Assembly: GCA_035632955.1 (NCBI GenBank)
Contig: DASQFU010000211.1
Coordinates: 14,025 to 78,024 of the forward strand
Origin: Candidatus Limnocylindria bacterium
GTDB lineage: Bacteria > Eisenbacteria > RBG-16-71-46
Direction: 5' to 3'
DNA: 64,000 bases
Position numbers and translations under genes: made by a program. The notes below the pieces were generated by a model, which saw nothing but the letters and a program-made list of their open reading frames with translations, did no database searches and was not told the origin of the DNA. Positions 6,378-49,010 of the stretch are shown in pieces. Within the stretch, counting starts at the first letter, position 1. Every line of letters starts with the position of its first letter.

Positions 6378-6505
6378 CCGGAGCTCCACCGACCGCGTCT
6401 CGTTCCATCGACAACCGGTCCTGCGCGAGATCGGGCCTTCTGCGATAGAGTGCCCGCCGGTCGCCGTCAACGATCTCGTCGTCTCAACCGGAGAGCTCCC
6501 GTCCC

Positions 6506-7267: not shown

Positions 7268-7322
7268 CCCGTTCTCTCCCCGCGACCTGAAGGTCCTGGT
7301 GATTCAACGATAGGAGGCCCGG

Positions 7323-7604
7323 ATGTCGAAACCTTGCACGCACCTGGACCAGGTCCATGACGTGACGCCGCAGACGCCCGCCGGCTGCGAGGAATGTCTC
7401 GCGTCCGGTGGCGAGTGGGTTCATCTGCGTCTGTGCTTGACCTGCGGCCACGTCGGCTGTTGCGACAACTCCGTAGGAAAACACGCGACCAAGCACTTCC
7501 AAGGCACCCATCACCCGATCATCCGCAGTTTTCAACCGAGCGAGAATTGGGGTTGGTGCTACGTGGATGAGATCTTCATGGAGCCGGCCCCCACCGTGTC
7601 GTAG
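7323..7604 (+). CDS. UBP-type zinc-finger domain protein
   Basis: CTHLD...CEECL...WVHLRLCLTCGHVGCCD...HATKHF...HHP pattern of Cys/His ligands typical of zf-UBP. Confidence 0.8.
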   Translation: MSKPCTHLDQVHDVTPQTPAGCEECLASGGEWVHLRLCLTCGHVGCCDNSVGKHATKHFQGTHHPIIRSFQPSENWGWCYVDEIFMEPAPTVS

Positions 7605-7635
7605 TAAACCGGCGGCCGTGCGGACGGATGAGCCC

Positions 7636-8566
7636 ATGACGAAGACCGAAGCGGATGCCAGGCTCGCCGACGCTTGGCCGGCCCTCCCCCTCGATGGCTG
7701 GCTGGAGACCTATGCCTCGCTGCACCTATGGACGCAGATCGTCGGCAAGACGCGGCTCGCACTGGCGCCGATGCAGAACCATTGGTGGCAGGTCACGCTC
7801 TACGTGACGGCACGAGGACTCGGGACGTCACCCATTCCCTACGGCGAGCGCACGCTCGAGCTCGAGTTCGACTTCGTCGATCACCGCCTCGTCGCGCGAG
7901 CGAGCGATGGCAGAATCCACACGCTCCCGCTCGTACCGCAGGCCACCGCCGACTTCTACGAGCAGTACCTGGATCTGTTGCGATCGTTGGACGTCGAGGT
8001 TCGGATTTGGCCGGTCCCTTCGGAGATCGCGAACCCGATACCGTTCACCGTGGATCGCGTGCATGCCTCGTACGATGCGGAAGCCGCCCATCGTCTCTGG
8101 CGGGTGCTGGTGCAGATCGATCGAGTCCTGAAGCAGTTTCGCGGGTCCTTCGTCGGCAAGTGCAGCCCGGTCCATTTCTGGTGGGGAGCGTTCGATCTCT
8201 CCTGCACGCGTTTCTCGGGGCGGCGCGCTCCTCCCCACCCGGGCGGCGTGCCGAATGTCCCGGACCGAGTCACGCGCGAGGGGTACTCGCACGAGTGCAT
8301 CAGCGCGGGCTGGTGGCCCGGAAGCGAGGCGGGCCCGGTACGGGAACCGGCGTTTTACGCCTACGCGTACCCGGAACCATTGGGATGTTCGGAGGCGACG
8401 ATCCAACCGCGCACGGCGAGCTATCACCCGGAGCTACACGAGTGGATTCTCCCGTACGCCGCGGTGCTCGAGGCCCAGGACCGCGACGCCGTGTTGCTCG
8501 AGTTCCTACACAGCACCTACGACGTCGCCGCCAGTCTCGGCGGATGGGATCGCGAAGCGTTGGACG

Positions 8567-13224: not shown

Positions 13225-13758
13225 TCATTTGAAGCTCGGTCGTGGGTAGGCGCCGCTCTGGTAGGTCGGCGCTTCGACTCCGGCTCGCTGGAGCGTGGCG
13301 TTCAGGTGGGCAATCTGGCCTTCGAGATCGTGCACGCGCTGGGCGAGCTGGGTCAGCCGGGCCGATGCCGTCCGCACCATCGCGACACCCATCTCCGGGA
13401 AATCCAGAATGGCGTCGAACAGAGTCTCGTTCGAGATGTTGAGCACGTGGGTGTGCTCGGCCGCCGCGGCGGTGAAGTGGTGCGGCTCCCCTTCCCCGAG
13501 GGCCAGCTCTCCGAACCCCTGCCCCACGATGCGGATGTCGTCCAGCGCCCGGCCCTTGTAGATCTCGACCCGGCCTTCGACGATCAGGAACGCGCCGCGG
13601 TTAGCGTCGCCCTCCTTGAACACCGTACGGCCGGCCTCGAAATGCAGCTCCCGCGAGCGGCTCGCCAGCTCCGCCAAGGCCTCGGTCGGCATGTGCGCGA
13701 ACAGTTCCGCGCTCTTCAGGATCGCGGTCTTCTCCATCAGCGTCAGCGTTTCTTCCAC
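13225..13758 (-). CDS. cyclic-nucleotide-binding-domain protein with C-terminal coiled coil (cassette copy A)
   Basis: cNMP-domain blocks LFAHMPTEALAELA...FKEGD...FLIVEGRVEIY...FGELAL. GTG 13758 aligns residue for residue with the ATG of the paralogue at 33905 (VEETLTLMEKT vs MPERMTLIEKT). Only 4 nt downstream of the TLC-HEAT stop. Confidence 0.8.
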   Translation of the reverse strand: MEETLTLMEKTAILKSAELFAHMPTEALAELASRSRELHFEAGRTVFKEGDANRGAFLIVEGRVEIYKGRALDDIRIVGQGFGELALGEGEPHHFTAAAAEHTHVLNISNETLFDAILDFPEMGVAMVRTASARLTQLAQRVHDLEGQIAHLNATLQRAGVEAPTYQSGAYPRPSFK

Positions 13759-13762
13759 GTCC

Positions 13763-16532: not shown

Positions 16533-16561
16533 TTGACTCGGATCGGTCCCCGACCGATAGT
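16533..16561 (+). promoter_or_regulatory. putative sigma70-type promoter (TTGACT-17 nt-GATAGT) just upstream of the Omp85-like gene, copy A
   Basis: TTGACT at 16533-16538, 17-nt spacer, GATAGT at 16556-16561, ATG at 16572 with no Shine-Dalgarno. The same arrangement occurs in copy B (36700-36727). Confidence 0.3.
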
Positions 16562-16571
16562 CCACGACCCC

Positions 16572-17966
16572 ATGCATCGGCTTTCCCCAGTTGCGATCGT
16601 GCTCGCGGCCTGCTTGAGTTCGACGGTCCCGGCGACACGGGCGGAATCGTTGGCGTCCCTCGACTTCACCACCGCCGCGACGCCGCCCGATTCCACCGAT
16701 GCGCCCGGCGCCAGCGCTGCCGCGCATCCGGATCACGGGGCCACGACCGCGCCGCCCTGGAATTCGCCGCACGCCGTCCCGGTCGAGCGAACCTGGGAGA
16801 CCGCGCTGCGCCTGCCCGGCCGGATCGTGTCCCTCCCGCTGCGCGCCCTCGGGTTCGTGAGCGAGCGCTTCCTCCTCCGGGTCGAGGATGCGAGCGTGGT
16901 GCCGAAGGCGGCGTACCTGTACTCGGCGTTGCCGTACGCCGGGGTCTTCGTCACCCCCGCGTCGCTCGGCGATCGAACGGGCTTCGGCGCGACGGTCCGG
17001 ATCGTTCCACCTCCGATCCGCAACCACTTGCAGGCAGAGGTGAGCGGCAGCACGCGCAACTATAGCAGCACCCGGATCGCGGCGTCCGCGGGCCCAGCAC
17101 GGCTCGCGTATCGCTACGACTGGCGGCCCCAGGAGCGGTTCTTCGGCGTCGGGCTGCGCGCCTCTTCCGATGACACGACCGCCTACGCGTGGCAGACCGA
17201 ACAGGTCCGATTCGGGCTGGAGTACCCCTGGATGCGATCGGGGCAGCCATCGCCGCGGACGCAGGTCAGCGCCTGGGTCGGTCCGCGCAGCATCGTCGTG
17301 CGCCGCGGGCGTGACCCCGACGTGGTGTCGTTCGAGCAGGAGTTCCCGGGCCTCGCCCCAGGACAGCTCGACCGGCGCTTCGAGCATCTGGTGTACGGGG
17401 GCCGCGCACAGGTGGATCGCCGCACGGGTGCGCCGCACTGGAGCCACGGCTATCGCGTCGCGCTGCAGATCGAGCGTTTCGACCAGCCGATCGAGGCGTT
17501 CGCGCTGCGCAGCGCCGCGGCCGCGAGTCCATCGTTCACGCGTAAGCGCCTCGAAGCCGAATGGGGCTTCTCGTTCATGCGTGACCCGCGCACGATTCGC
17601 CTCGGCTGGGTCGTCGTCGACCAGGACGCTGCGTCGGACTCGGTTCTGCTGCTCCCCGACCTCGCTCGCCTCGGAGGCGCGCAGGGGCTCGCCGGCTTCG
17701 AGCCCGGCCGCTTCCACCACCGTGACGCTCTGGCGATGAAGCTCAGCTACATCTTTCCGATGGCCGAACACTTCGAGTTCGACCTCCACACGGAAGTCGG
17801 TGGCGTCTATGCCGACGTCATGGAAGACCCGCGGCTCGACGATCTCGAGACCTCCTATGGCGTGGCGCTACGGCCACGCTCGAAAGAGACCGTGCTGGGC
17901 TCGATCGGCGTCGACTGGAGTCGCGAGAAGGTGCGGATTCGCTATTCGCTCGGAGGCGTCGAATGA
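16572..17966 (+). CDS. Omp85/BamA-superfamily-like outer-membrane beta-barrel without POTRA domains (cassette copy A)
   Basis: Signal peptide MHRLSPVAIVLAACLSSTVPATRA. Omp85-like block LGGAQGLAGFEPGRF (compare GG..xRGF) and alternating beta-strand C-terminus. The TTG at 16533 used by the ORF track is more likely a -35 box. Confidence 0.65.
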   Translation: MHRLSPVAIVLAACLSSTVPATRAESLASLDFTTAATPPDSTDAPGASAAAHPDHGATTAPPWNSPHAVPVERTWETALRLPGRIVSLPLRALGFVSERFLLRVEDASVVPKAAYLYSALPYAGVFVTPASLGDRTGFGATVRIVPPPIRNHLQAEVSGSTRNYSSTRIAASAGPARLAYRYDWRPQERFFGVGLRASSDDTTAYAWQTEQVRFGLEYPWMRSGQPSPRTQVSAWVGPRSIVVRRGRDPDVVSFEQEFPGLAPGQLDRRFEHLVYGGRAQVDRRTGAPHWSHGYRVALQIERFDQPIEAFALRSAAAASPSFTRKRLEAEWGFSFMRDPRTIRLGWVVVDQDAASDSVLLLPDLARLGGAQGLAGFEPGRFHHRDALAMKLSYIFPMAEHFEFDLHTEVGGVYADVMEDPRLDDLETSYGVALRPRSKETVLGSIGVDWSREKVRIRYSLGGVE

Positions 17967-19303
17967 TTCGTGCGCGGAGTCGCCTCCGGACGATCGCGTC
18001 GGTCGCCCTGCTCGCAGGCTGCGGGTGGCGGCTCGCCGCCGCGGCTCCGGAGCAGCGCGCCGAATCGCCTGAGCCCACCGACATCTCGTATTACTACGAC
18101 CTCCTCGAGCACACGGTGTTCCGCCCGGTCGCGCGAGCGCTCGATCCGTCATTGCTGGTGCGAAAGGTCACGGGGCGGCGCCGCGAGGCGTTCAACGTCG
18201 ACGAGCAGGACCAGGTCCGGCTGCCGAGCACCTGGTGGCAGCCGCGGCTGGGTTTCCAACCGCTCACGGTTGCGGACATGATTGCCGGCCTGGGACCGAC
18301 GACCGGTCCCGCCCGCGGCAAGTGGCATGTCACGCGCGCCAAGACGCAAGGCGTCACGCCCGGCTTCTTCATCAAAGACGCGACCGGGGCGCGCTTCATT
18401 CTCAAGTTCGATCCGCCGAATCAGCCCGAGATGGCGACCGGCGCGGGCGTCGTCGCGGCCTACCTGTACTGGGCCGCGGGATTCAACGTGCCGAACGACG
18501 TCATCGTCTCCTTCCGCAGCGAGGATCTGGCGATCGTCGAGGGAGCGCTCTACACCGATCCGCACGGGCACAAGAAACCGATCTCGCGGGAGTTCCTGGA
18601 GCAGATCCTTGCCCGCGTCGCGCGCAGCTCGGACGGGACGTATCGCGCGCTCGCGAGCCGGCTCCTGGCCGGCAAGCCGCTCGGACCGTTCGAATATCGC
18701 GGCCGCCGCCGTGACGACCCCGAGGATCTCATTCCGCATCAGCTCCGTCGCGAGCTGCGCGGCTTGTGGTCGATTGTCGCTTGGACCAATCACGCCGATT
18801 CCCGCGGGCCGAACTCGCTCGACGTGTGGGTCACGGACGGCGACCGCTCGTTCGTGCGTCACCATCTGATCGATTTCAACGGCTGCCTCGGATCGGGCTC
18901 GATCGCGGCGCGCTCGCCCCAGACCGGTAACGAATACTTCGTGGACTATGGCGTGATGGCGCGCTCGCTCCTGACGCTGGGCCTGCGGCGTGCGCGCTGG
19001 GAGACCACGGTCGACCCGCAGCTCCCGAGCATCGGCTTCATCGAAGCCTCGGCGTTCGACCCGGAAGGGTGGCGGCCCGACTATCCGAATCCCGCCTTCG
19101 ACGAACGAACGGAGCGCGACGTGCGGTGGGGCGTGCGGATCGTCGCCGGTTTCACGGACGAGCACATCCGCGCGGCGGTGGAGCAGGCGCAGTTCTCCGA
19201 TCCACGGGCGACCGAATACTTGACCCAGGTGCTGATCCAGCGGCGCGACATCCTCGTCCGGCGCTGGCTCATCGAGCCTCAGACCGCCACCACGACGCGT
19301 TGA
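17963..19303 (+). CDS. lipoprotein with PI3K/PI4K-like (protein-kinase-like) catalytic core (cassette copy A)
   Basis: ATGA overlap with the barrel gene. Lipobox VALLAGC. Motifs RFILKFD (Lys148), NHADSRGPNSLD (Asp279/Asn284) and HHLIDFNG (Asp304). Paralogue at 38145..39476. Confidence 0.7.
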   Translation: MIRARSRLRTIASVALLAGCGWRLAAAAPEQRAESPEPTDISYYYDLLEHTVFRPVARALDPSLLVRKVTGRRREAFNVDEQDQVRLPSTWWQPRLGFQPLTVADMIAGLGPTTGPARGKWHVTRAKTQGVTPGFFIKDATGARFILKFDPPNQPEMATGAGVVAAYLYWAAGFNVPNDVIVSFRSEDLAIVEGALYTDPHGHKKPISREFLEQILARVARSSDGTYRALASRLLAGKPLGPFEYRGRRRDDPEDLIPHQLRRELRGLWSIVAWTNHADSRGPNSLDVWVTDGDRSFVRHHLIDFNGCLGSGSIAARSPQTGNEYFVDYGVMARSLLTLGLRRARWETTVDPQLPSIGFIEASAFDPEGWRPDYPNPAFDERTERDVRWGVRIVAGFTDEHIRAAVEQAQFSDPRATEYLTQVLIQRRDILVRRWLIEPQTATTTR

Positions 19304-33365: not shown

Positions 33366-33905
33366 CTACTCGCGGCTTCCAGATCGGCGATTGGGTTCGG
33401 AGAGAGGGGATTCGGGTGTTGCGAGGCCCGATTGCTCGAGCGTCTCGCTGCATTGCTTGAGCTGGGCCTCCAGCTGCAGCACCCGCTCGGTCAGCCGATG
33501 CACCTGCAACGATTGCGCGCGCGATAGGGCGAGGCCGAAATCCGGAACATCGAGCAGCACCTCGACCACGTCGTCGCGCTGAATGTTGAGCACATGCGTC
33601 TCTTCGCGCGCGATTCCCGTGTACTGGTGCCCGGCGTTCTCCTCGAGGAAGAACTCTCCGTGCGCGGCACCCGAGCGCAGGGGTCGGACGACCGCGTCGC
33701 CTTTGCGCAGCTCCACCAGCCCGTCCACGACGATGAACGTGCCCTGGTCCTCGTCGCCTTCGCTGAACAACACTTCATCCGGGTCGGCATGAATCTCGGT
33801 CGCGCGCGCCGCGAGCTGTGCGAGGGCTTCGGTCGGAACGCTGGAGAACAGGTTCGTCGACTTGAGGAAGACCGTCTTCTCGATCAGCGTCATTCGCTCG
33901 GGCAT
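33366..33905 (-). CDS. cyclic-nucleotide-binding-domain protein with C-terminal coiled coil (cassette copy B)
   Basis: Paralogue of 13225..13758, with blocks LFSSVPTEALAQLA...FSEGDEDQGTFIVVDGLVEL. Starts 3 nt after the TLC-HEAT stop. Confidence 0.8.
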   Translation of the reverse strand: MPERMTLIEKTVFLKSTNLFSSVPTEALAQLAARATEIHADPDEVLFSEGDEDQGTFIVVDGLVELRKGDAVVRPLRSGAAHGEFFLEENAGHQYTGIAREETHVLNIQRDDVVEVLLDVPDFGLALSRAQSLQVHRLTERVLQLEAQLKQCSETLEQSGLATPESPLSEPNRRSGSRE

Positions 33906-33908
33906 GCG

Positions 33909-36626
33909 CTACCCTGCTGCGAGTGCGTTTTGGGCCCACGCGGCGGTCTCTCGCACGCGTGGATCCTCGGCTTGAAGGTTCACCTGGACGAGCTCGGCGA
34001 GCGCGCGCTCACGGCGGTACCCGACGACGTAGAGAGCGCACACGCGTAGCCAGGAATCGGTGCCGTTCAAGCATTCCTGAAGTGCCTCGGCGTAACTTGG
34101 CTCCCGCAAGCCGAAACGCTCCTGGGCGCGTGGCAACTGTTCCTCGTCCGGAGTGTCGTCGAGTAGGGGCAGCACCAACTCTCGATCCTCGGCCGACAGA
34201 GCCGTCTCCAGGTACTCGAGCGCGTTACCCCGGAGATGTGGCTTGCCCGAACCCCGGCCTCGATACGCAGCGTAGATGGTATCGGGTGGGTAGATCAGAG
34301 CGAGACGCCGGAAGACCCGATTCAACGTCTGGGCCAGTCGCTCGTCCAGGACCGCCGAGAGAAACGTTTCGGCGCTGCCTCCTTCCACGGACGTGAACGC
34401 ACGCCGCTGCAGGAACCCGAGCCAGTACGTGCGGACTTCGTATTCCAGGTCTTCTCGAACCTGTTCGCTCGGGAAAGCGATCTCCGGATTCGCGCGTCGG
34501 ATGCGATTGCAGGCCTTGAGAACGCGATACGTGAGCACCATGTCGGACCGGTCCCGGAAGCGGAACAAAGCGAGGATGGATTCGGAGGTCGGTATCTCCC
34601 GCAACACGCGCGGAATCTCCCGCCGCACCTCGATCCGGACGCCGGTATCGACGAGCAAGTCCGCGAGCGTGCCGACCACGATCTCCCCCATCGCTGCCAG
34701 GCCTGCGCGCGCCGCCCGTTCCGTCTCGGATTTTCCCAGCGCCTCGATGAGCATCGGGATGTGCTCGCGACGCTTACCGCTCGCTGCGGCCCGCAAGGCT
34801 GCATTTCGCACCTCGAGATCCGGATCGGCGAGCAGCGGCGTCAGCAGATCGTGCAATCGGCTCTGCGTCGGCGCGACAGCCAGCGCTTCCACGGCCTCGA
34901 TCCGCCGCGCGGTCGCGCCGTCCCGTAGACGCGGTTCGAGGATGTCATGCACACGCGCGTCCTCTTCCGCCGGCGCGAACTGGACCAGGCATTGAAGTGC
35001 GGTCGCGCGCAGCCGCGGATCCTGGTCGTCGAAAAACGGGTCCAACGTCCTGGTGGGCCGTCCCCGCCCCAAAGCGCAGGTCGCCCGCAGCGCACCGAGT
35101 CGAACCGCGGGATCTTCGTCGTTCAGCAACGCACGCACCTGCTCGCGCGCCGAGTCGGTCTGAAATGTGGCGATCAGCTCCAGCGCGCGACCCCTCACCC
35201 GGGCGGAGGCGTGCTCAACCAATCGTGGCAGCCGCTTCTCGAGCAGAGGCATCGCGCTGTCTTCGAGCAGATCCATGCCGTGCATCACGACCCGTTCGTA
35301 GGGACTGTCGAGCAGCCTCACCATCTCTTTGAGCAGCCGGCGCTCGCGCAGCCGAATCGTCATCTGTTCGGGGTCCACGTGCAGGCGGTTCAGGGTTCGC
35401 GATAGCTCACGCTCGTAACCGCGGCGCAGCTCGTACCAGGCCACGAGCCAGATCGCGACCACCACCACGATTAGCACCGCGATCGTCCAGGTGTCCACGC
35501 CGAAGGCGATCCCGATCCCGAGAATCATCAGCCCCGCGATGCCGTCTCCCACGCGCTCGAGTCCCGCCTCGATCACCGCTTTCGCGTGACGCCGCAGCGC
35601 CGGCTCGAGCGGGAAATAGAACAGCTCGACCGCCGCCTTGTTCAGCGACAGGCGGATGATCTGGTCCCAGAGCCGCGTGCCCAAAACCGTCAGCGCGCCC
35701 GGTGCCAGCAGCGTCGCCACGGCGCCGATCCCGAGGCCAGCCGGCAGCACCAACGAGGACGAAGAAGCGCCGAGCGTGCTCAGCGACCAGCGCGTGACGA
35801 TCATCTGCACCGCCAGTGCGCCCAGGTTCATTGCGGTGTAGAACATTCCGAAGAACTGCGCGAGCGCGGTCCTCGTCGGATAGCGATTCTGGATCTCGAC
35901 TTTGAGCTGGTAGTCGAGCACTCCGGTGATGATCACCGAGCACAGCGAGGCGATCGCGAGCCAGCGCACGTAGGACGAGCTCCAGGGAGATTGCGTTCGT
36001 TCGGGTCTGGCGGCCACGGCTTCTGCCGGTGTGTGGCCGCGACGCACGCCGGTCACGATCAGCGGAACGACGAGGGCGACCAGCAACGCCGCCGAGAACG
36101 CGAGCGCATCGAGGCCCAGCGCGGGCCCGAGGGCGCTCGCCGTCAAGCCTCCGATCAGACCGCCGAGAATCCCGCCGCCACCGATCATTCCGAAGATGCG
36201 CTTGGCGAGTCGCGGATCGGAGATGCTGTTCGTGAACGCCCAGAACTGGGAGACGAGGATGAGACCGTAGACGTTCACCCACAGGTAGAAGGCAACCGGC
36301 AGCCAGCCCCTCTCACTTCTGAAGAAAGGTGCGAAGGCCGCGAGCGACACCGAGGCGATCGCGGCCGCCGCAACCAGCGTGACCCAGGTTGGAACCCGGC
36401 GCGTGAGCTTCGCCACGACCTGGGACACGAGCAGCGTGAGGCCGCCGACGCCGAGATATACGTAGGGCAGCGATTGCGCGGGCAACCGGGAAAGGTAGAG
36501 GGAATCGCGCGCCGTCTTGACCAGCGTGTAGGAGCTGGTGATCCCGAACAGCACGAGGGCGAGCGTCAAGGCATGTCGCAGCTCGTGCGGCTCCAGCTCC
36601 AGCCGTCGAGCCAGACGTTCGATCAT
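33909..36626 (-). CDS. TLC (ATP/ADP-translocase-like) transporter domain fused to HEAT repeats (cassette copy B)
   Basis: FYLWVNVYGLILVSQFWAFTNSISDPRLAKRIFGMIG plus HEAT units DEDPAVRLGALRA, DQDPRLRATALQCL and DPDLEVRNAALRAA. Colinear with 13763..16486 over the full length. Confidence 0.8.
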   Translation of the reverse strand: MIERLARRLELEPHELRHALTLALVLFGITSSYTLVKTARDSLYLSRLPAQSLPYVYLGVGGLTLLVSQVVAKLTRRVPTWVTLVAAAAIASVSLAAFAPFFRSERGWLPVAFYLWVNVYGLILVSQFWAFTNSISDPRLAKRIFGMIGGGGILGGLIGGLTASALGPALGLDALAFSAALLVALVVPLIVTGVRRGHTPAEAVAARPERTQSPWSSSYVRWLAIASLCSVIITGVLDYQLKVEIQNRYPTRTALAQFFGMFYTAMNLGALAVQMIVTRWSLSTLGASSSSLVLPAGLGIGAVATLLAPGALTVLGTRLWDQIIRLSLNKAAVELFYFPLEPALRRHAKAVIEAGLERVGDGIAGLMILGIGIAFGVDTWTIAVLIVVVVAIWLVAWYELRRGYERELSRTLNRLHVDPEQMTIRLRERRLLKEMVRLLDSPYERVVMHGMDLLEDSAMPLLEKRLPRLVEHASARVRGRALELIATFQTDSAREQVRALLNDEDPAVRLGALRATCALGRGRPTRTLDPFFDDQDPRLRATALQCLVQFAPAEEDARVHDILEPRLRDGATARRIEAVEALAVAPTQSRLHDLLTPLLADPDLEVRNAALRAAASGKRREHIPMLIEALGKSETERAARAGLAAMGEIVVGTLADLLVDTGVRIEVRREIPRVLREIPTSESILALFRFRDRSDMVLTYRVLKACNRIRRANPEIAFPSEQVREDLEYEVRTYWLGFLQRRAFTSVEGGSAETFLSAVLDERLAQTLNRVFRRLALIYPPDTIYAAYRGRGSGKPHLRGNALEYLETALSAEDRELVLPLLDDTPDEEQLPRAQERFGLREPSYAEALQECLNGTDSWLRVCALYVVGYRRERALAELVQVNLQAEDPRVRETAAWAQNALAAG

Positions 36627-36735: not shown

Positions 36736-38148
36736 GTGCACTTCTGGAGCGCGTTTGCTGCGACGTGCGTGTGGGTCGCGCTGATGTCGATCGACGCCGG
36801 GGCGGCGGTGGAAACCGCCCCGGCGAATCCATCGTTGCTCGCGGCGGCCGACACGACACGGAACCGTACATCGGCTCCGGCGACCGAAGCCGGCGATCTC
36901 GCCGTGACTTCCGATGTCCCCTGGAATCCCCCCCGCGCGCTCTCACGCCGGCATCCATGGGAGCAGGTACTGCAATTTCCCGGGCGCATCGTGACGGTGC
37001 CGATCTCGGCGCTCGGCTACACCGTGGAGCACGGCCTGTTCTGGATGGAGAAGACGAGCTTCGTCACCAAGGCCACGTTCGCGGCGCGCGATCTGCGCGG
37101 GCGTGCCGGGCTCTCCGTCCGGCCTGCGAGCCTCGGGGATCGGACCGGCCTGGGCGGGACCATCCGCATGGACACACCCTTCTTCGGGGGCGCGCTCAAG
37201 AACCGTGTCAGCACCGAGCTCAGCGGCAGCACGCGCAAGTACAGCGGCGTGGTCGTCACCGTGAAGGGCGAGCCTGGACTTCTCGAGTACGGACAGGAGT
37301 GGCGGCCGCAGGATCGTTTCTACGGCCTCGGGATCGAATCTGTTCGTGACAGTGTCAGCGACTACGCGACCCAGAGCCAGTTCGCGCGCGCGCGCTTACG
37401 CTGGACATGGAACCAGGAGAAACGGGAGGAGCCGCGCGCGGCGTTCGCGATCTGGGCCGGGACGCGCAATGTCGTGACCCGCAACGGCCGCGGGGATGGG
37501 ACGGTTTCCTACCACGTCCGTTTTCCCGATCTCGGCGCCGCCACGCTCGATCGCCATGTCGAACACTTCATCTACGGCACCAGCCTCGCGAGCGATTGGC
37601 GGGTCGGCGAACCCCACTGGAGCCAGGGCTGGCGGGTGTGGCTTTCCGCCGAACGCTACGATCGACCGATCCATCCGCTGGCGCTGCGCGTCGGGCAACC
37701 GCGCGGCGCGCAGTTCACACGCTACGACGTCGAAGTCGAGACCGGAAAATCGTTCCTGCGCGACCCGCGCACGCTCCGGCTGCTCGTGCGGATGACGAAT
37801 CAGGAGGTCTCGTCCGGTGGCGATCGTTTCCTGATCTCCGATCTGCCCAAGCTTGGCGGGCGCGAAGGCCTGTCGGGATTCGAGGCCGGCCGATTTCACG
37901 ATCTCGATCTGTTGGCGACCAAGATCTCTTACATCTTCCCGCTGGTGGGGCGGCTCGAACTCGATGTTCACACCGAATGGGGCGCCGTCCATTCGAACGT
38001 TTGGGAAGACCTGAAGTTCAGCACGCTGAGGAACTCGTTCGGCGTCGCCCTGCGCGGGCGTCTCAAGCACACACCCTTCGGCTCGATCGGTGTGGACTTC
38101 AGTCCCGAGAAAACGCGGTTACGCTTCTCCGTGGGGAGGGTCGAGTGA
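36736..38148 (+). CDS. Omp85/BamA-superfamily-like outer-membrane beta-barrel without POTRA domains (cassette copy B)
   Basis: Paralogue of 16572..17966. Signal-like N-terminus MHFWSAFAATCVWVALMSIDAGAA, LGGREGLSGFEAGRF block, beta-strand-rich C-terminus. Confidence 0.65.
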   Translation: MHFWSAFAATCVWVALMSIDAGAAVETAPANPSLLAAADTTRNRTSAPATEAGDLAVTSDVPWNPPRALSRRHPWEQVLQFPGRIVTVPISALGYTVEHGLFWMEKTSFVTKATFAARDLRGRAGLSVRPASLGDRTGLGGTIRMDTPFFGGALKNRVSTELSGSTRKYSGVVVTVKGEPGLLEYGQEWRPQDRFYGLGIESVRDSVSDYATQSQFARARLRWTWNQEKREEPRAAFAIWAGTRNVVTRNGRGDGTVSYHVRFPDLGAATLDRHVEHFIYGTSLASDWRVGEPHWSQGWRVWLSAERYDRPIHPLALRVGQPRGAQFTRYDVEVETGKSFLRDPRTLRLLVRMTNQEVSSGGDRFLISDLPKLGGREGLSGFEAGRFHDLDLLATKISYIFPLVGRLELDVHTEWGAVHSNVWEDLKFSTLRNSFGVALRGRLKHTPFGSIGVDFSPEKTRLRFSVGRVE

Positions 38149-39476
38149 AGCCCGCGATCATTCTCGGCGCGCTGCTCGGGGCCCTCGGCTGGACCGACAC
38201 GCTCGTGGCTCAGCCGCCCTCGGGCGCAACCGAGATGCCCAGAGAACGCGACTACTCGTACATCTACGACATGCTCGACCACAGTCTCGTGCGACCCTTT
38301 ACGCGGGTGTTCGATCCCGCCCTGCTGTTGCGCAAGGTCGTGGGGCGCCCGCGCCAGGCCGCCAACGTGGGCGAAAACGATCAGGTGCGCCTCCCGAGCA
38401 CCTGGTGGCAGCCGCGGATCGGCTTTCGGCCGGTCACGGTCGAGCAAATGATGAAGGGGCCGGGATCGAGCGCCGGGCCCGCGCCGGGAAAATGGACGGT
38501 CACCAAAGCCAAGACCCAGGGCGTCACCCCCGGCTTCCAGATCGAGGACTCGAAGGGCGATAGGTTCATCATCAAGTTCGATCCCACCACGTTCCCCGAG
38601 CTCACCACTTCGGTCGACGTCATCGGCTCGCACCTGTTCTGGGCGGCCGGGTACAACGTTCCTCACAACACCATCGCCACGTTCAAAGCCGAGGATCTCG
38701 CGCTCGACAAGGATGCCACCTTTACCGACGCGCTCGGCAAGAAGCAGCCAATGACGCCGGAGTACCTGACTCAGCTCCTCGACCGGGTCGCTCGCCTGCG
38801 CGACGGCACGTACCGCTGCCTCGCGAGCAGGTTCATCTCCGGCAAGCCCCTGGGTCCGTTCGAGTACTACGGGCGGCGCAACGACGATCCCGAGGACCTG
38901 ATTCCGCACGAGCTGCGGCGCGAGCTGCGCGGGCTGTGGACCGTGTGCGCGTTCCTCAACCATGCCGACAGCCGCGGGCCCAACTCGCTCGACATGTGGG
39001 TGACCGAGAACGGCCGCTCGTTCGTGCGCCATCACCTGATCGATTTCGGCTCGATCCTCGGTTCGAGCGCCATCGGTCCGCGCTCATACGTGACCGGCAC
39101 CGAGTATTACGTGGACTTCAACGTGATTGGCCAGCAGGCGGCCACGATCGGGCTGCGGCCGTTCGACTGGGAGCGGGTCGTGGATCCGAAAATTGCCTCG
39201 ATCGGATTCGTCGAGGGGAGGGTGTTCGACCCGGCCGGCTGGCGGCCGGACTACGCGAACCCGGCATTCGACGAGCGCACCGAGCGCGACATCCGTTGGG
39301 GTGCGAAGATCGTCGCCGGTTTTACCGACGAGCACATCCGGGCCGCCGTGAAGGCCGGGAGCTACTCCGACCTGCGGGCCTCGGAGTACCTGACCCAGGT
39401 GCTGATCCAGCGCCGCGACAAGCTGGTTCGCCATTGGCTCGGGCCGGACTACCGCGTACCTTACGATACGCGATGA
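38145..39476 (+). CDS. exported protein with PI3K/PI4K-like kinase core (cassette copy B)
   Basis: GTG 38145 forms a GTGA overlap with the barrel gene stop. Signal peptide VKPAIILGALLGALGWTDTLVAQ. Motifs RFIIKFD (Lys144), NHADSRGPNSLD (Asp275/Asn280, nt 38961-38996) and HHLIDFGSILG (Asp300-Phe-Gly). Confidence 0.7.
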   Translation: MKPAIILGALLGALGWTDTLVAQPPSGATEMPRERDYSYIYDMLDHSLVRPFTRVFDPALLLRKVVGRPRQAANVGENDQVRLPSTWWQPRIGFRPVTVEQMMKGPGSSAGPAPGKWTVTKAKTQGVTPGFQIEDSKGDRFIIKFDPTTFPELTTSVDVIGSHLFWAAGYNVPHNTIATFKAEDLALDKDATFTDALGKKQPMTPEYLTQLLDRVARLRDGTYRCLASRFISGKPLGPFEYYGRRNDDPEDLIPHELRRELRGLWTVCAFLNHADSRGPNSLDMWVTENGRSFVRHHLIDFGSILGSSAIGPRSYVTGTEYYVDFNVIGQQAATIGLRPFDWERVVDPKIASIGFVEGRVFDPAGWRPDYANPAFDERTERDIRWGAKIVAGFTDEHIRAAVKAGSYSDLRASEYLTQVLIQRRDKLVRHWLGPDYRVPYDTR

Positions 39477-40861
39477 GGTCGATCGTGTGGGCGATTCCCT
39501 TCCTGCTGGCGCTGGCCGCCTCTTCGGGCTGCAGCCGCGCTCACATCGGCGTATACGAAGGGACGTTTCCTGCCCCCGGGGCGATCACCGCGTTCGACAA
39601 GCGGTGGAGCTCGTTGCCACGCGAGAGCAAGGCGGGCGCGCCTCCGTTCCTGGTTCCGGGCAGCACCAATATGGTGCGACACGACGTCGGCACGGTCGCG
39701 GTTCCGCCCGAGGCGGACAGCATCATCGTCATCGTCTATGGGGACAACCGGCCCGGCTGGCGGATGATGACGACCGCGTGGGGGCTGCCCGCGGTTCTCA
39801 ACATCGGCAGCTCCGATCCCAAGCAGTTCCTGTGGGCGATGGCGAACATCCCGGTGATGCTGGTGCAGGCGGTCGTACCACGATTCGACCTGTTCCACGA
39901 CCTGATGAGCGCCTTCTGGACGCGCCGATTCTCGGGAGGCGCCGAGCGTCGGGTCATCGAAGCGATCGAGAAGGACCTGCCCGCGAACTTCGTCGTCAAC
40001 ACGGGTGATCTGGTCGAGAACGGCCGGAGGGGCCTGCAATGGGAGGATTTCGTCCGCAAGCACGAACATCTGCGCAGGCGGGTTCCGTTTCTGGCGGCAC
40101 CGGGAAACCACGAGCGCCTGTGGTCGAAGGAGGGCCAAGCGAACTGGGATGCGGTGATGGGCCCTCCCGCCCAGCCCGATCGTTACTGGTTCGCAGTCGA
40201 CCTGCAGGAGTCGATCGCCCGCTTCGTGTTCCTCGATTCCGAGCTGCTGGCGGACCCGCGCGACCACTATCCGGACTCGCTGCAATCGGCGCTGTCGAAC
40301 GAGCAGTTGCGCTGGGCGGATTCGGCGCTCGCCGTGCCGGCGCGCTGGCGATTCGTCATCCTGCACCATCCGCTGGTCACGAGCGGGCACTACTTGTCCG
40401 ACTGGGCGTCCGACGAGTCGAGTCCGGTCGAAACCAGGCGCCGTGGGCGCCTGCTCGAGATTTGCCGGCGGAGGGGCGTGACGGCGGTGCTCGCCGGCCA
40501 CGAGCACCTCTACCAACGCACCTTCGTGCGCGGCCGGGACGGACGTGGCTTCTGGCATATCGCGACCGGCGGCGGCGGATCCCCGCTCTATCGCATCTCC
40601 GAGTACGAGCGCAAGGCGGCACTCGCCTTGACGCTGCCGGATAGCTCGGTCGTGACGTGGAACCGCGCGCGCTCGATGTACCACTATTGCCGCCTCATCA
40701 TCGTGCGACGCCCCAAACCGGGCGAGGATGCGGTGGTACTGGAGGTCAACCGTGTGCGGGACAACGGACAGATCACCCGCATCGACTTCGTGCACCTGAA
40801 CGAGCTGCCTCCGGAGGAGAAACGTGAACGCATCCCCGGGCAACCGCCCCCCGGCTTCTAG
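39473..40861 (+). CDS. lipoprotein metallophosphoesterase (calcineurin-like)
   Basis: ATGA overlap with the upstream gene. Lipobox-like LALAASSGCS. Metallophosphatase motifs VYGDNRPG, NTGDLVENG, APGNHE, ILHHP and LAGHEHLY. Confidence 0.8.
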   Translation: MRSIVWAIPFLLALAASSGCSRAHIGVYEGTFPAPGAITAFDKRWSSLPRESKAGAPPFLVPGSTNMVRHDVGTVAVPPEADSIIVIVYGDNRPGWRMMTTAWGLPAVLNIGSSDPKQFLWAMANIPVMLVQAVVPRFDLFHDLMSAFWTRRFSGGAERRVIEAIEKDLPANFVVNTGDLVENGRRGLQWEDFVRKHEHLRRRVPFLAAPGNHERLWSKEGQANWDAVMGPPAQPDRYWFAVDLQESIARFVFLDSELLADPRDHYPDSLQSALSNEQLRWADSALAVPARWRFVILHHPLVTSGHYLSDWASDESSPVETRRRGRLLEICRRRGVTAVLAGHEHLYQRTFVRGRDGRGFWHIATGGGGSPLYRISEYERKAALALTLPDSSVVTWNRARSMYHYCRLIIVRRPKPGEDAVVLEVNRVRDNGQITRIDFVHLNELPPEEKRERIPGQPPPGF

Positions 40862-42230
40862 CCGGCGCGGACTTCTGGATCGACTGCTCTCTCTGTTCGC
40901 CGACGTCCGGGGCGGCGAGGGCGCCCCCGCGCTGCTGATGATGCTCAACGTGTTCCTGCTGTTGAGCTGCTACTACATCATAAAACCGGTGCGGGAAGCG
41001 TTCATCCTGAGCGGCTCCGGCGCCGAGGTGAAGAGCTACGCCTCGGCCGCGATGGTCGTCGTGCTGGTGTTCCTGATTCCCGCCTATTCCGCCTTCGCGA
41101 GCCGCGTCAACCGGACGACGCTCCTGACGTGGGTCACGGGCTTCTTCGTCGTCAATCTGATTGCGTTCTACTTCCTGGCCCAGGCGCGGATGCCCTATCT
41201 CGACATCGTGTTCTTCGTCTGGGTCGGCATCTTCAACGTCATGATCATCGCCCAGTTCTGGTCGCTGGCGAACGACGTCTACACGCCCGACGAGGGAAAG
41301 CGGTTGTTCGCGATCATCGCTTTCGGCTCCACGATCGGCGCGATCGTCGGGGCCACGTTGGTCGAGAATCTGGTGGACCCCGAGAAGGCCGATCCCAACG
41401 CGGTCAATCGGATGCTGCTGGTCGCCGCGGGAGTCCTGGCCGTTTGCGGTGCCCTCACGCTGCTGATCAGCCGCCGCTCGAAAGTGGCGGTGTCCGAGGA
41501 GGCGAAGACATCGGCCGCCGAGCAGCCGCTCGCCTCCAAGGGAGCGTTCCGGCTCGTGCTCAGCGAGCGTTACCTGCTGCTGATCGGCCTATTGATGCTG
41601 ATCGTCAACTTCGTGAACACGACCGGGGAATACATCCTCGGCGAGACGCTCGAGAGGACCGCTAAGAGCCTGGCCGCAGCCGGGCAGACCGCGGGCCTCG
41701 CCGCCGAGGAGTTCGAGAAACAGTTCATCGGCAACTACTACGCGGGCTTCTTCAAGTGGGTGAACTGGGTCACCGCCCTGGTGCAGTTGTTCATCGTGTC
41801 GCGGTTCCTGAAATGGTTCGGCGTGAGAGCGGCGCTGTTCGTGCTGCCGCTGATCGCGCTCGGAGGCTATGCGATGCTGGCGCTCGCGCCGGTGCTGTCG
41901 GTGATTCGCGGCGTCAAGATCGCGGAAAACTCCGTGGACTACTCGCTCCAGAACACGACGCGCCAGGCGTTGTTCTTGCCGACCTCGCGCGAGGCGAAGT
42001 ACAAGGCGAAGCAGGCTACCGACACGTTCTTCTGGCGCGCCGGCGACGTGCTGTCTGCGGCGTTGGTGTTCGTCGGCAGCCAGCTCGCGCTCCCGCCGCG
42101 GGGCTTCGCGCTCGTGAACATCGTGCTCGTGCTGGCGTGGATCGTGATCGTGATCGGTCTCGCGCGCCTCCACAAGCAGCGCACCGCGGACTCCGAGGCG
42201 GTTCCAGCGACCGCCCCGGCGCGCGCCTGA
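40824..42230 (+). CDS. stand-alone TLC family (ATP/ADP-translocase-like, Npt1/Npt2-type) transporter
   Basis: CYYIIKPVREAFIL and FFVWVGIFNVMIIAQFWSLANDVYTPDEGKRLFAIIAFG hallmark blocks, about 12 TMs. The GTG 40824 start overlaps the upstream gene by 38 nt, so the start is uncertain. Confidence 0.8.
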   Translation: MNASPGNRPPASSRRGLLDRLLSLFADVRGGEGAPALLMMLNVFLLLSCYYIIKPVREAFILSGSGAEVKSYASAAMVVVLVFLIPAYSAFASRVNRTTLLTWVTGFFVVNLIAFYFLAQARMPYLDIVFFVWVGIFNVMIIAQFWSLANDVYTPDEGKRLFAIIAFGSTIGAIVGATLVENLVDPEKADPNAVNRMLLVAAGVLAVCGALTLLISRRSKVAVSEEAKTSAAEQPLASKGAFRLVLSERYLLLIGLLMLIVNFVNTTGEYILGETLERTAKSLAAAGQTAGLAAEEFEKQFIGNYYAGFFKWVNWVTALVQLFIVSRFLKWFGVRAALFVLPLIALGGYAMLALAPVLSVIRGVKIAENSVDYSLQNTTRQALFLPTSREAKYKAKQATDTFFWRAGDVLSAALVFVGSQLALPPRGFALVNIVLVLAWIVIVIGLARLHKQRTADSEAVPATAPARA

Positions 42231-48884: not shown

Positions 48885-49010
48885 GCTTGACCTCGGTGCG
48901 CGGCCGGCTTGGTGTTGGGGCTTACGGCTCGGGTGCCCGAGGGTCGGGTACCCCCGTCAAGGTACTGACGGTCCGCGGCGGATGTGACACGCCGCGCGGA
49001 GCGGGCCGAT

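What the first reader, a model, noticed from the sequence alone, without database searches (positions are those of the whole stretch)
38145..39476. Exported proteins with a PI3K/PI4K-like catalytic loop and DFG motif
Both paralogues carry the elements of a lipid/protein-kinase-like active site in the right order and spacing. A beta3-type lysine is present (RFIIKFD, Lys144; copy A RFILKFD, Lys148). A catalytic loop is present: LNHADSRGPNSLD, with D-x4-N as in GDRHNDN of PI3K/PI4K. A metal-binding segment is present: HHLIDFGSILG (copy A HHLIDFNGCLG), which mirrors HIDFGHILG of PI3Ks. Both have export signals: copy A the lipobox LLAGC, copy B a cleavable signal ending LVAQ. Kinase-fold enzymes targeted outside the cytoplasm of a free-living diderm are unusual. 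The identical NHADSRGPNSLD block in two otherwise diverged paralogues indicates strong constraint.
Basis: partly seen in the sequence, partly recalled or inferred. Interest (0 to 1): 0.75.

Follow-up and report, generated by a model that had tools for sequence, protein, structure and literature searches.

The report
Exported kinase-like enzyme with ATP-carrier neighbours
Two paralogous genes encode an uncatalogued family of exported kinase-fold enzymes, always paired with an outer-membrane barrel and often with ATP/ADP-carrier homologues, which suggests (unproven) ATP-driven phosphorylation in the bacterial envelope.

Summary
ORFs 38145-39476 (443 aa) and 17963-19303 (446 aa) are 63% identical paralogues. 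Both carry N-terminal export signals and the complete protein-kinase-like (PKL) motif set: Gly-rich loop, beta3 Lys144, alphaC acid, HxDx[K/R]xxN, DFG. Lys144, Asp275, Asn280 and Asp300 are conserved in 81-82 of 82 homologues from at least 8 phylum-level groups.

Pfam, NCBIfam and PDB sequence searches find nothing. A high-confidence AlphaFold model (pLDDT 94.6) matches only kinase-fold structures. The best are the secreted kinases CtkA and Fam20C; PI3K/VPS34 scores much weaker. This is a new PKL family, not a PI3K/PI4K member.

New context:
- An Omp85-superfamily barrel gene sits directly upstream in 75 of 80 loci, with start and stop codons overlapping in the window.
- NTT/TLC ATP:ADP-carrier homologues lie within 8 kb in 39 of 80 loci. 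In the reverse test the figure is 13 of 32.
- Exported phosphoesterases (metallophosphoesterase, PAP2) recur in these loci.
- The window holds the unit twice (cNBD, NTT-HEAT, barrel, kinase).
- Elsewhere the same NTT subfamily neighbours a second, unrelated family of small exported Fam20/PI3-4K-like proteins.

Best reading: an envelope phosphotransferase, probably fed with ATP by the adjacent carriers. The substrate is unknown and nothing has been tested experimentally.

The parts
38145..39476 (+). Kinase-like protein, copy B (443 aa), the finding itself. Residues 1 to about 23 form the Sec-type signal. The Gly-rich loop is K123-G126-G130. The beta3 Lys144 codon is at 38574-38576. The catalytic loop N272-D283 is at 38958-38993. 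D300-F-G is at 39042-39050.
   Evidence: motifs and conservation. (AF2 pLDDT 94.6; Foldseek returns kinase-fold hits only). (no Pfam, NCBIfam or PDB sequence match). (GTG start overlaps the upstream TGA; RBS GGGGAGGG).
17963..19303 (+). Kinase-like protein, copy A (446 aa). It is a predicted lipoprotein (…VALLAGC, Cys20) with Lys148, NHADSRGPNSLD at 276-287 and IDF at 303.
   Evidence: (63% identity to copy B). (ATGA overlap with the upstream gene; RBS GGAGG).
36736..38148 (+). Partner B (470 aa). It is an exported, divergent Omp85-superfamily beta-barrel protein with no recognisable POTRA domain, translationally coupled to kinase copy B.
   Evidence: 44% identity to partner A; the window protein itself has no Pfam hit, but relatives pass the PF01103 cut-off with 27.9-66.5 bits; this family lies directly upstream of the kinase-like gene in 75/80 loci.
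16533..17966 (+). Partner A (477 aa as listed; the true start is probably the Met at codon 14). It is an Omp85-superfamily barrel, translationally coupled to kinase copy A.
39473..40861 (+). Metallophosphoesterase (462 aa), a predicted lipoprotein (…LALAASSGCS). Its start overlaps the kinase stop (ATGA).
   Evidence: PF00149, E 1.3e-14. (start and lipobox). (nearest solved structures are purple-acid-phosphatase type: 3zk4 at E 1.7e-5, 1ute). (this family is present in 29/80 loci).
40824..42230 (+). Single-domain NTT/TLC-family carrier homologue (468 aa). It is the last gene of the copy B operon.
   Evidence: PF03219 TLC at 51 bits against a cut-off of 21; MFS_1. (TIGR00769 at 44.6 bits, far below its cut-off of 387). 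(PDB 9j3n 'ADP,ATP carrier protein 1', E 3e-7). (recurrent linkage).
33909..36626 (-). NTT-HEAT fusion B (905 aa), transcribed divergently from partner B and kinase B.
   Evidence: TLC E 3e-13; HEAT_2 E 9.5e-21. (51% identity to copy A). The architecture is described in PMC5381601.
13763..16486 (-). NTT-HEAT fusion A (907 aa), transcribed divergently from partner A and kinase A.
33414..33899 (-). Cyclic-nucleotide-binding-domain protein B, immediately downstream of NTT-HEAT B. Coordinates are those of the match; the exact start was not fixed.
   Evidence: 41% identity to the copy A protein. (PF00027, E 2.4e-11).
13225..13800 (-). Cyclic-nucleotide-binding-domain protein A, immediately downstream of NTT-HEAT A. 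The true start lies at or below about 13760.
   Evidence: PF00027, E 2e-14.

Best explanation
The finding is one of two paralogous members of a large, uncatalogued family of exported protein-kinase-like (PKL) enzymes.

Shown:
- The protein has a Sec or lipoprotein signal.
- It has a bilobal kinase fold.
- It has the full catalytic apparatus: Gly-rich loop K123/G126/G130, beta3 Lys144, alphaC acid E152 and E/D158, catalytic loop H273-x-D275-x-[R/K]277-x-x-N280, and Mg-binding D300-F-G.
- Its gene is almost always translationally coupled to an upstream Omp85-superfamily outer-membrane barrel gene.
- It is frequently co-operonic with exported phosphoesterases and with NTT/TLC carrier homologues.

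Inferred mechanism:
- After export, the enzyme sits at the periplasmic face of the envelope. It is lipid-anchored in many members and docked to, or handled by, its Omp85-like partner.
- There it transfers the gamma-phosphate of a nucleotide to an envelope substrate. The substrate could be a protein, a lipid or glycolipid, or a glycan; it is undetermined.
- The adjacent NTT carriers exchange cytoplasmic ATP for periplasmic ADP. With the membrane potential negative inside, ATP4-/ADP3- exchange would favour ATP efflux, as it does for the mitochondrial ADP/ATP carrier.
- The NTT-HEAT copies would be gated by the downstream cyclic-nucleotide-binding proteins.
- The metallophosphoesterase lipoprotein, and PAP2 in relatives, would reverse the modification or recycle nucleotide and phosphate.

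Overall this would be a bacterial analogue of the eukaryotic secretory-pathway kinases, which depend on lumenal ATP import.
For: Fold:
- AF2 model built on 108 sequences has pLDDT 94.6 and pTM 0.92.
- Foldseek against PDB gives CtkA at E 5e-5 / prob 1.0 / target TM 0.57 and Fam20C at 8.5e-5 / prob 1.0. Every strong hit is a kinase fold.
- The weaker first model gave the same hit list.

Catalytic residues:
- Invariant or nearly invariant in 32, 82 and 108-sequence alignments.
- Position 277 is R in 40 and K in 39 of 82 sequences.

Export:
- Lipobox in copy A and a signal-like N-terminus in copy B.
- A strict lipobox pattern matches 47 of 108 relatives; most of the others have AxA-type signals.

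Omp85 pairing:
- 75 of 80 loci, same strand, mostly -4 to +20 nt apart.
- Pfam PF01103 is passed by relatives.
- ATGA/GTGA overlaps occur in the window.

NTT linkage:
- 39 of 80 kinase-seeded loci from Eisenbacteria, Krumholzibacteriia, Zixibacteria, Ignavibacteria, Acidobacteriota and Cytophagia. Gene orders differ between lineages.
- Reciprocally, 24 of 80 NTT-seeded metagenome loci carry the kinase-like gene, and 13 of 32 where at least 3.5 kb upstream was available.
- All three NTT genes of this 64-kb window lie inside the two cassettes.
- NTT identity: Pfam TLC above its cut-off and PDB ADP,ATP carrier protein 1 at E 3e-7.

Independent echo:
- In NTT loci that lack this family, the carrier is flanked by 1-3 small signal-peptide proteins with NEDR[T/H]QxN…IDHSR motifs. 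These give weak PI3_PI4_kinase, HipA_2 and Fam20C hits, and Fam20 xylosylkinase 5xom at E 1e-3.
- The same loci carry signal-peptide PPP-type phosphatases.

Phosphatase links:
- Metallophosphoesterase in 29 of 80 loci.
- PAP2 is fused to the barrel in about 12 clusters and to a kinase-like protein in P0122.
Against: - No biochemical evidence of any kind exists. ATP binding, catalysis, localisation and carrier direction are all inferred.
- Half of the kinase-seeded loci have no NTT gene within 8 kb, so the carrier is not obligatory in cis.
- The substrate specificity of these NTT homologues is unknown. They score far below the NCBIfam NTP/NDP-exchanger cut-off (44.6 bits against 387). Characterised NTTs import nucleotides.
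- ATP released into a periplasm bounded by a porin-containing outer membrane would leak away.
- An Omp85 partner could equally mean that the kinase is moved to the cell surface or the medium, where periplasmic ATP would be irrelevant.
- Foldseek TM-scores are modest (at most 0.39 on the query).
- I could not inspect the superposition, so I have not verified that Lys144, Asp275 and Asp300 overlay the catalytic residues of the templates.
Confidence: 0.5

Rival explanations
1. The protein is a secreted effector or toxin. The Omp85-like partner acts like a two-partner-secretion (TpsB-type) translocator and exports the kinase-like protein to the cell surface or the medium. There it phosphorylates targets in other cells using their ATP, as H. 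pylori CtkA and HipA-family toxins do.
For: The closest structural neighbour is the secreted kinase CtkA, and HipT also appears among the hits. The barrel gene lies adjacent to and is coupled with the exported passenger gene. Some partner relatives show a weak ShlB/FhaC-type match.
Against: - No TPS domain is present and no POTRA domain was detected.
- The family is highly conserved (60-70% identity within Eisenbacteria, about 40% across phyla) with stable synteny, and no immunity-like small gene recurs. This pattern is atypical of effector or toxin loci.
- Many members are lipoproteins.
- This reading does not explain the reciprocal linkage to NTT carriers and exported phosphatases.
Confidence: 0.15
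2. The protein has a kinase fold but performs different chemistry. It could be an exported pseudokinase or a nucleotidyl (AMP/UMP) transferase, in the way SelO and SidJ reuse the fold. It could be a phosphotransferase that uses a non-nucleotide donor. It could also be a periplasmic nucleotide-binding receptor that hands scavenged nucleotides to the NTT importer, with the metallophosphoesterase trimming extracellular nucleotides.
For: Characterised NTTs are importers, and free-living NTT homologues are uncharacterised (PMC5381601). The nearest solved relatives of the metallophosphoesterase include a diphosphonucleotide phosphatase. The family has many additional invariant residues, such as D247/D248/D251, H255 and R258/R259/R262, which are not part of the canonical kinase set.
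Against: All canonical phosphotransfer residues, including the catalytic-loop Asp and Asn and the DFG Asp, are invariant. SelO-type AMPylators and pseudokinases usually lose or move some of these. A pure binding protein would not need them.
Confidence: 0.2
3. The NTT adjacency is functionally unrelated to ATP supply. Examples would be shared regulation or a shared envelope-stress regulon. The exported kinase would obtain its phosphoryl donor otherwise, or would act before export.
For: About half of the loci lack an NTT gene within 8 kb. NTT loci also often carry cytoplasmic Hanks-type kinases and REC-PP2C regulators, which hints at a regulatory neighbourhood.
Against: The linkage holds in both directions, across several phyla and with different gene orders. 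It recurs with a second, sequence-unrelated family of exported kinase-like proteins. In the window, four genes run barrel-kinase-MPE-NTT with overlapping start and stop codons.
Confidence: 0.15

Closest known systems
CtkA (JHP940) of Helicobacter pylori and the HipA/HipT kinase family
   Same: It is the best structural match (3akl/3akk, E 5e-5, prob 1.0, target-normalised TM 0.57). It is an atypical bacterial PKL kinase. CtkA is itself exported.
   Different: There is no detectable sequence similarity, with no HipA_C or HipA_2 Pfam hit. The catalytic loop is HxDx[K/R]xxN. The protein has about 100 extra N-terminal residues and a larger C-lobe. It has an obligate Omp85-like partner. It is present in free-living soil and sediment phyla rather than as a toxin or effector.
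Fam20 secretory-pathway kinases (Fam20C Golgi casein kinase, Fam20B xylosylkinase)
   Same: They are the second-best structural matches (4kqb, E 8.5e-5, prob 1.0). They are kinases that work outside the cytosol and depend on ATP transported into that compartment. This is the best functional analogy.
   Different: They are eukaryotic. There is no PF06702 hit and TM is only about 0.35. The ATP carrier here would be an NTT/TLC-type MFS protein rather than an SLC35-type transporter. The partner barrel has no Fam20 counterpart.
PI3K/PI4K lipid kinases (PF00454)
   Different: There is no Pfam hit. VPS34 appears only at rank 44-48 with E about 1e-2. The DRHxxN signature is absent. No helical or C2 accessory domains are present.
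NTT-HEAT / NTT-HEAT-cNBD nucleotide-transporter fusions of free-living bacteria (Major, Embley & Williams 2017, PMC5381601)
   Same: The window carries two NTT-HEAT genes, each followed by a cNMP-binding gene. This is exactly the architecture described there.
   Different: That paper left the function open and did not report linkage to exported kinase-like proteins or Omp85 barrels. I found no paper that does.
Omp85-family barrel plus adjacent exported partner (two-partner secretion TpsB/TpsA; BamA/TamA-type insertases)
   Same: An Omp85-superfamily barrel gene lies adjacent to, and is co-transcribed with, the gene of a signal-peptide protein.
   Different: No POTRA domain was detected. The passenger has no TPS domain. 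The gene order is barrel first. The barrel carries a conserved N-terminal segment of about 100 aa of unknown fold.

Membership tests
Protein-kinase-like (PKL) superfamily | Bilobal kinase fold | tested here: met
   The AF2 model has pLDDT 94.6. Foldseek against PDB returns only kinase-fold proteins among the 15 hits at E<=1e-3. The secondary-structure order is beta1-3, alphaC, beta4-5, alphaE, catalytic loop, beta-hairpin, DFG, helical C-lobe.
Protein-kinase-like (PKL) superfamily | beta3 Lys paired with an alphaC acidic residue | tested here: met
   Lys144 is kept in 81/82 (one gap) and lies at the end of strand 140-144. Position 158 is E or D in 74/82 and E152 is E or D in 78/82, in or at helix 153-167. 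The salt bridge itself was not inspected.
Protein-kinase-like (PKL) superfamily | Catalytic-loop Asp and Asn, and the DFG Asp | tested here: met
   D275, N280 and D300 are each 82/82. F301 is 79/82 and G302 is 64/82.
Protein-kinase-like (PKL) superfamily | Binds ATP/Mg and transfers phosphate | not testable with these tools
   This needs biochemistry. No coordinates were available to dock a nucleotide.
PI3K/PI4K (PF00454) | Match to the family HMM | tested here: not met
   There is no Pfam hit at E<=0.1 for either paralogue, nor for 10 distant relatives.
PI3K/PI4K (PF00454) | G-D-R-H-x-x-N catalytic signature | tested here: not met
   The loop is N-H-x-D-x-[R/K]-x-x-N. Only the Asp-x4-Asn spacing is shared.
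PI3K/PI4K (PF00454) | Closest structural neighbours are PI3/4-kinases | tested here: not met
   VPS34 is at rank 44-48, E about 1e-2, prob 0.5-0.7.
HipA/CtkA kinases | Match to the HipA_C or HipA_2 HMM | tested here: not met
   No Pfam hit.
HipA/CtkA kinases | Structural similarity | tested here: inconclusive
   CtkA is the top hit, but TM is 0.38 on the query and 0.57 on the target, with rmsd 9-10 A. This shows the same superfamily, not family membership.
Fam20 (PF06702) | HMM match or close structural similarity | tested here: not met
   There is no Pfam hit. Foldseek gives prob 1.0 but TM of about 0.35.
Sec/lipoprotein-exported proteins | N-terminal signal peptide or lipobox | tested here: met
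   Copy A has MIRARSRLRTIASVALLAGC, with the lipobox LAGC. Copy B has MKPAIILGALLGALGW…. A lipobox is present in 47/108 relatives and the others have signal-like N-termini. This rests on pattern inspection only; no SignalP-type predictor was available.
Omp85 superfamily (PF01103), for the partner gene | Match to the Omp85 barrel HMM | tested here: met
   The window copies do not hit on their own. Relatives that are 44-47% identical, and the upstream genes in other phyla, pass the cut-off with 27.9-66.5 bits against 24. Membership is therefore shown by transitivity.
Omp85 superfamily (PF01103), for the partner gene | POTRA domain(s) N-terminal to the barrel | tested here: not met
   No POTRA Pfam hit was found in any of 36 members. 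No structure prediction of the partner was made.
NTT/TLC nucleotide carriers (PF03219), for the neighbouring genes | Match to the family HMM or to a solved NTT | tested here: met
   PF03219 scores 48-51 bits against a cut-off of 21 for all three genes. PDB 9j3n ADP,ATP carrier protein 1 matches at E 3e-7. All three fall below the NCBIfam TIGR00769 cut-off.
NTT/TLC nucleotide carriers (PF03219), for the neighbouring genes | Adenine-nucleotide exchange activity and its direction | not testable with these tools
   This needs liposome or whole-cell transport assays.

The most novel reading that the evidence does not exclude
Free-living diderm bacteria of several phyla run an ATP-dependent phosphorylation system in the periplasm or outer membrane. 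NTT-type carriers, whose role outside intracellular parasites and plastids is an open question, would export ATP in exchange for ADP. That ATP would fuel exported kinases: this Omp85-coupled family, and in other lineages a small Fam20/PI3-4K-like family. Exported phosphatases would oppose them. If so, the periplasm is not ATP-free, and bacteria have a counterpart of the eukaryotic secretory-pathway kinome.
Probability: 0.4. Interest if true: 0.92.

Novelty: new variant of a known kind. Interest (0 to 1): 0.78.

Why it matters
The periplasm is generally taught to lack ATP, so envelope processes are thought to be powered indirectly, through proton-motive-force transducers or ABC machines that span the inner membrane.

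A widespread, strongly conserved exported enzyme with an intact kinase active site challenges that picture. Its gene is wired to ATP/ADP-carrier homologues and to exported phosphatases. This yields a concrete and cheap set of tests: ATP binding by the purified domain, carrier reconstitution, and periplasmic ATP sensors.

It also offers the first specific functional hypothesis for the NTT and NTT-HEAT-cNBD genes of free-living bacteria, whose role was left open in PMC5381601.

Finally, it defines a new PKL family with more than 3,000 cluster representatives at 50% identity, together with an Omp85-family partner of unknown role.

Tried and rejected
- **Sequence searches.** Pfam and NCBIfam scans of both paralogues and of 10 distant relatives found no family. 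PDB searches with the single protein and with 32- and 108-sequence profiles gave only noise: pyruvate carboxylase at E 0.07 and designed armadillo repeats.
- **First structure model.** The first AF2 model, built on 32 close homologues, was mediocre (pLDDT 66) and gave borderline Foldseek scores. It was superseded by the 108-sequence model.
- **Link between the two kinase-like families.** An hhalign comparison of the focal family with the small NTT-linked kinase-like family aligned the catalytic-loop/DFG regions. It was not significant (prob 0.5%, E 0.12), so no homology is claimed.
- **Partner protein.** PDB sequence and profile searches gave nothing.
- **Literature.** Searches for periplasmic or secreted bacterial kinases linked to nucleotide transporters found nothing relevant.
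- **Named or cultured members.** A cluster look-up for 10 representatives found only 'hypothetical protein' entries from MAGs and metagenomes.
- **Readings considered and rejected.** (1) A cytoplasmic kinase with a mis-called start: rejected because of the RBS plus ATGA/GTGA coupling and the conserved signals. (2) Chance motif matches: rejected because of invariance across phyla. (3) PI3K/PI4K membership: rejected, see the membership tests.


Full report
**1. What is there**

The stretch 38145-39476 (+) is an uninterrupted ORF of 443 codons. It starts with a GTG that overlaps the TGA stop of the upstream gene (GTGA) and is preceded by GGGGAGGG. An independent public gene call on a Logan contig gives the same 443-aa product and the same neighbours.

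The paralogue at 17963-19303 (+) carries RFILKFD, the identical NHADSRGPNSLD block, HHLIDFNGCLG and the lipobox LLAGC. The two proteins are 63% identical.

**2. Is it a kinase fold?**

Sequence methods are blind to this protein:
- Pfam-A and NCBIfam find nothing at E<=0.1.
- phmmer and profile searches of all PDB sequences find nothing.

The family is nevertheless large:
- More than 1,000 close hits, all annotated 'hypothetical'.
- 3,099 representatives at 50% identity with E<=1e-3, of which 992 have E<=1e-30.

A first AlphaFold model built on 32 close homologues was mediocre (pLDDT 66), yet it already returned only kinase-fold proteins. A second model built on 108 diverse homologues reached pLDDT 94.6 and pTM 0.92. 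Its Foldseek search of the PDB gave 15 hits at E<=1e-3:
- H. pylori secreted kinase CtkA: E 5e-5, prob 1.0, target TM 0.57.
- Golgi casein kinase Fam20C: E 8.5e-5.
- Then Fam20A, Fam20B, PINK1, HipT and an alpha-kinase.
- VPS34/PIK3C3 only near rank 45, with E about 1e-2.

The order of secondary-structure elements is the canonical one. Three N-lobe strands end with Lys144. Then follow a long helix (153-167), two strands, a helix (259-271) leading into the catalytic loop, a beta-hairpin (281-298), D300-F-G and a helical C-lobe.

In an 82-sequence alignment reaching down to 39% identity:
- Lys144 is kept in 81/82, the exception being a gap.
- D275, N280, D283, H296 and D300 are invariant.
- Gly-rich loop: K123 in 80/82; G126 and G130 in 81/82.
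- Position 158 in the alphaC helix is acidic in 74/82.
- Position 277 is Arg in 40 and Lys in 39, so the loop reads HxDx[K/R]xxN. This is closer to HRDxKxxN of eukaryotic protein kinases than to DRHxxN of PI3K.

Conclusion: this is a new family of the protein-kinase-like superfamily with a complete catalytic set. It is not a PI3K/PI4K member.

**3. Is it exported?**

- Copy A has a positively charged n-region, a hydrophobic core and LAGC.
- Copy B has a short hydrophobic N-terminus. The cleavage site is uncertain, because Gln at -1 is unusual.
- Among 108 family members, 47 match a strict lipobox pattern. Most others show typical AxA-type signals or relaxed lipoboxes.
- No dedicated signal-peptide predictor was available, so this rests on pattern and conservation.

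**4. Context in the window**

The gene belongs to a unit that occurs twice in the window:
- Left arm (minus strand): a cyclic-nucleotide-binding protein (13225-13800 and 33414-33899) downstream of an NTT-HEAT fusion (13763-16486 and 33909-36626).
- Right arm (plus strand, divergent): an exported protein of about 470 aa (16533-17966 and 36736-38148), then the kinase-like gene.
- Paralogue identities are 41%, 51%, 44% and 63% respectively. This is an old duplication of the whole unit.

Copy B continues with two more genes. The first is a metallophosphoesterase lipoprotein (39473-40861, start overlapping the kinase stop as ATGA). The second is a single-domain NTT/TLC carrier homologue (40824-42230).

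The NTT-HEAT(+cNBD) architecture is the one described by Major, Embley and Williams (2017) in free-living bacteria. Its function is unknown (PMC5381601).

**5. Context elsewhere**

A scan of one genome per GTDB species found more than 550 loci. The best 80 come from Eisenbacteria, Krumholzibacteriia, Zixibacteria, Latescibacterota, Gemmatimonadota, Acidobacteriota, Calditrichia, Ignavibacteria, Marinimicrobia and Cytophagia MAGs.

Clustering all ORFs of these loci gave the following:
- The upstream partner family is present in 75/80 loci, on the same strand and mostly -4 to +20 nt from the kinase-like gene. This is the conserved core.
- NTT-family genes are present in 39/80 loci.
- The metallophosphoesterase is present in 29/80 loci.
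- No other family recurs in more than 14 loci.

The window's partner proteins have no Pfam hit. Their relatives, and the upstream genes in other phyla, pass the Omp85 (PF01103) cut-off with 27.9-66.5 bits. The partner is therefore a divergent Omp85-superfamily barrel without a detectable POTRA domain.

The NTT linkage occurs with different gene orders in different phyla.

A reciprocal scan of metagenome contigs, seeded on the single-domain NTT subfamily, found the barrel-plus-kinase pair in 24/80 loci. Where enough upstream sequence existed, the figure was 13/32.

Some Eisenbacteria fuse an integral-membrane PAP2 phosphatase to the N-terminus of the barrel. One representative fuses PAP2 to the kinase-like protein.

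**6. An independent echo**

In NTT-seeded loci that lack the focal family (L087, L114, L121, L128, L135, L152, L154, L159), the carrier is flanked by two kinds of exported protein:
- One to three paralogous proteins of 266-319 aa (most 266-296) with signal peptides and NEDR[T/H]QxN … ILIDHSR[S/T]F motifs. They give sub-threshold hits to PI3_PI4_kinase (E 4e-4), HipA_2 and Fam20C, and to the solved Fam20 xylosylkinase (E 1e-3).
- Signal-peptide PPP-type metallophosphoesterases.

A profile-profile comparison with the focal family was not significant. The two families are therefore independent by sequence, yet they share the pattern 'exported kinase-like protein next to an NTT carrier and an exported phosphatase'.

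**7. Mechanism**

Shown:
- An exported PKL-fold protein with an intact catalytic motif set.
- Coupling to an Omp85-like barrel.
- Reciprocal but non-obligatory linkage to NTT homologues and exported phosphoesterases.

Inferred:
- The enzyme phosphorylates an envelope substrate using a nucleotide supplied by the NTT carriers. ATP4-/ADP3- exchange would run outward in an energised cell, by analogy with the mitochondrial carrier (established knowledge, not tested here).
- The NTT-HEAT copies are regulated through the cNBD proteins.
- The phosphoesterases reverse the modification or recycle the products.

The substrate is open. The PAP2 links and the lipoprotein anchoring hint at a lipid or glycolipid. 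The PPP-type and purple-acid-type phosphatases and the Fam20C analogy hint at proteins.

Main weaknesses:
- There are no experiments.
- Half of the loci lack an NTT gene in cis.
- Characterised NTTs are importers.
- ATP would leak through porins.
- The Omp85 partner might instead export the kinase to the cell surface.

**8. Verdict**

The protein is a new family within a known superfamily. The gene system around it (Omp85 barrel, exported kinase, exported phosphatase, NTT carrier, duplicated in the window) has, as far as I could find, not been described. It makes the idea of periplasmic ATP-dependent phosphorylation directly testable.

Noticed in passing
L114:6687-11505, L159:3492-9441, L135:6054-11128, L154:2583-4312, L128:6068-7928, L152:5882-7949, L087:2501-3358, L121:8002-8961: A second family lies beside the same NTT subfamily. 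It consists of small signal-peptide proteins (266-319 aa, most 266-296) with NEDR[T/H]QxN…IDHSR motifs, often in 2-3 tandem paralogues. They give weak PI3_PI4_kinase, HipA_2, Fam20C and SCO1664-family hits, and Fam20 xylosylkinase 5xom at E 1e-3. They occur together with signal-peptide PPP-type phosphatases (GDxHG/GDxxDRG/GNHE).
   Followed up: partly
P0285, P0297, P0302 (barrel relatives; e.g. locus L006 about 5900-7980) and P0122: An integral-membrane PAP2 phosphatase domain is fused N-terminally to the Omp85-like partner in about 12 Eisenbacteria clusters. An internal signal-peptide-like segment lies between the two parts. In one representative PAP2 is fused C-terminally to the kinase-like protein. 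Whether these are true fusions or merged gene calls was not resolved.
   Followed up: partly
window 22104-30695 (-): A giant 2,863-aa ORF carries GH94 supersandwich and catalytic domains plus a glucoamylase-like domain. This is the architecture of cyclic beta-1,2-glucan synthases, which make periplasmic glucans. It lies between the two cassettes, and no recurrent linkage was seen in other loci.
   Followed up: no
window 42578-44101 (+): An OmpA-family protein has an N-terminal beta-barrel, a run of thrombospondin type-3 (calcium-binding) repeats and a C-terminal OmpA domain. It lies directly downstream of the copy B operon.
   Followed up: no
whole window; P0001 and P0271 record names: NCBI labels the source MAG 'Candidatus Limnocylindria bacterium' (Chloroflexota). 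However, every close homologue and syntenic locus is from Candidatus Eisenbacteria MAGs (60-69% identity), and the window is rich in outer-membrane genes. The bin label may be wrong.
   Followed up: no
relatives P0125-P0270; loci L021-L080: Most family members outside the Eisenbacteria clade are about 560 aa and carry a C-terminal extension of 95-141 aa with no Pfam match. Both window paralogues lack it.
   Followed up: no
L130:173-1810, L063:2224-3846 and 14 further NTT-seeded loci: A Hanks-type Ser/Thr kinase with an N-terminal domain of about six membrane helices is encoded next to the NTT gene in 16/80 NTT-seeded loci and in 6/80 kinase-seeded loci. The kinase domain is predicted to be cytoplasmic. 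A REC-PP2C response regulator occurs in 14/80 kinase-seeded loci.
   Followed up: no
window 48984-51143 (+) and 51174-54968 (+): Two long ORFs (719 and 1,264 aa) have no Pfam match. They overlap a 2,238-aa ORF on the opposite strand (49011-55727), so it is unclear which strand is coding.
   Followed up: no
window 16533-16575: The listed TTG start of partner A is probably too far upstream. A Met 13 codons downstream is followed by …VAIVLAACLSS, a signal peptide with a lipobox-like LAAC. This would be unusual for an Omp85 barrel.
   Followed up: no
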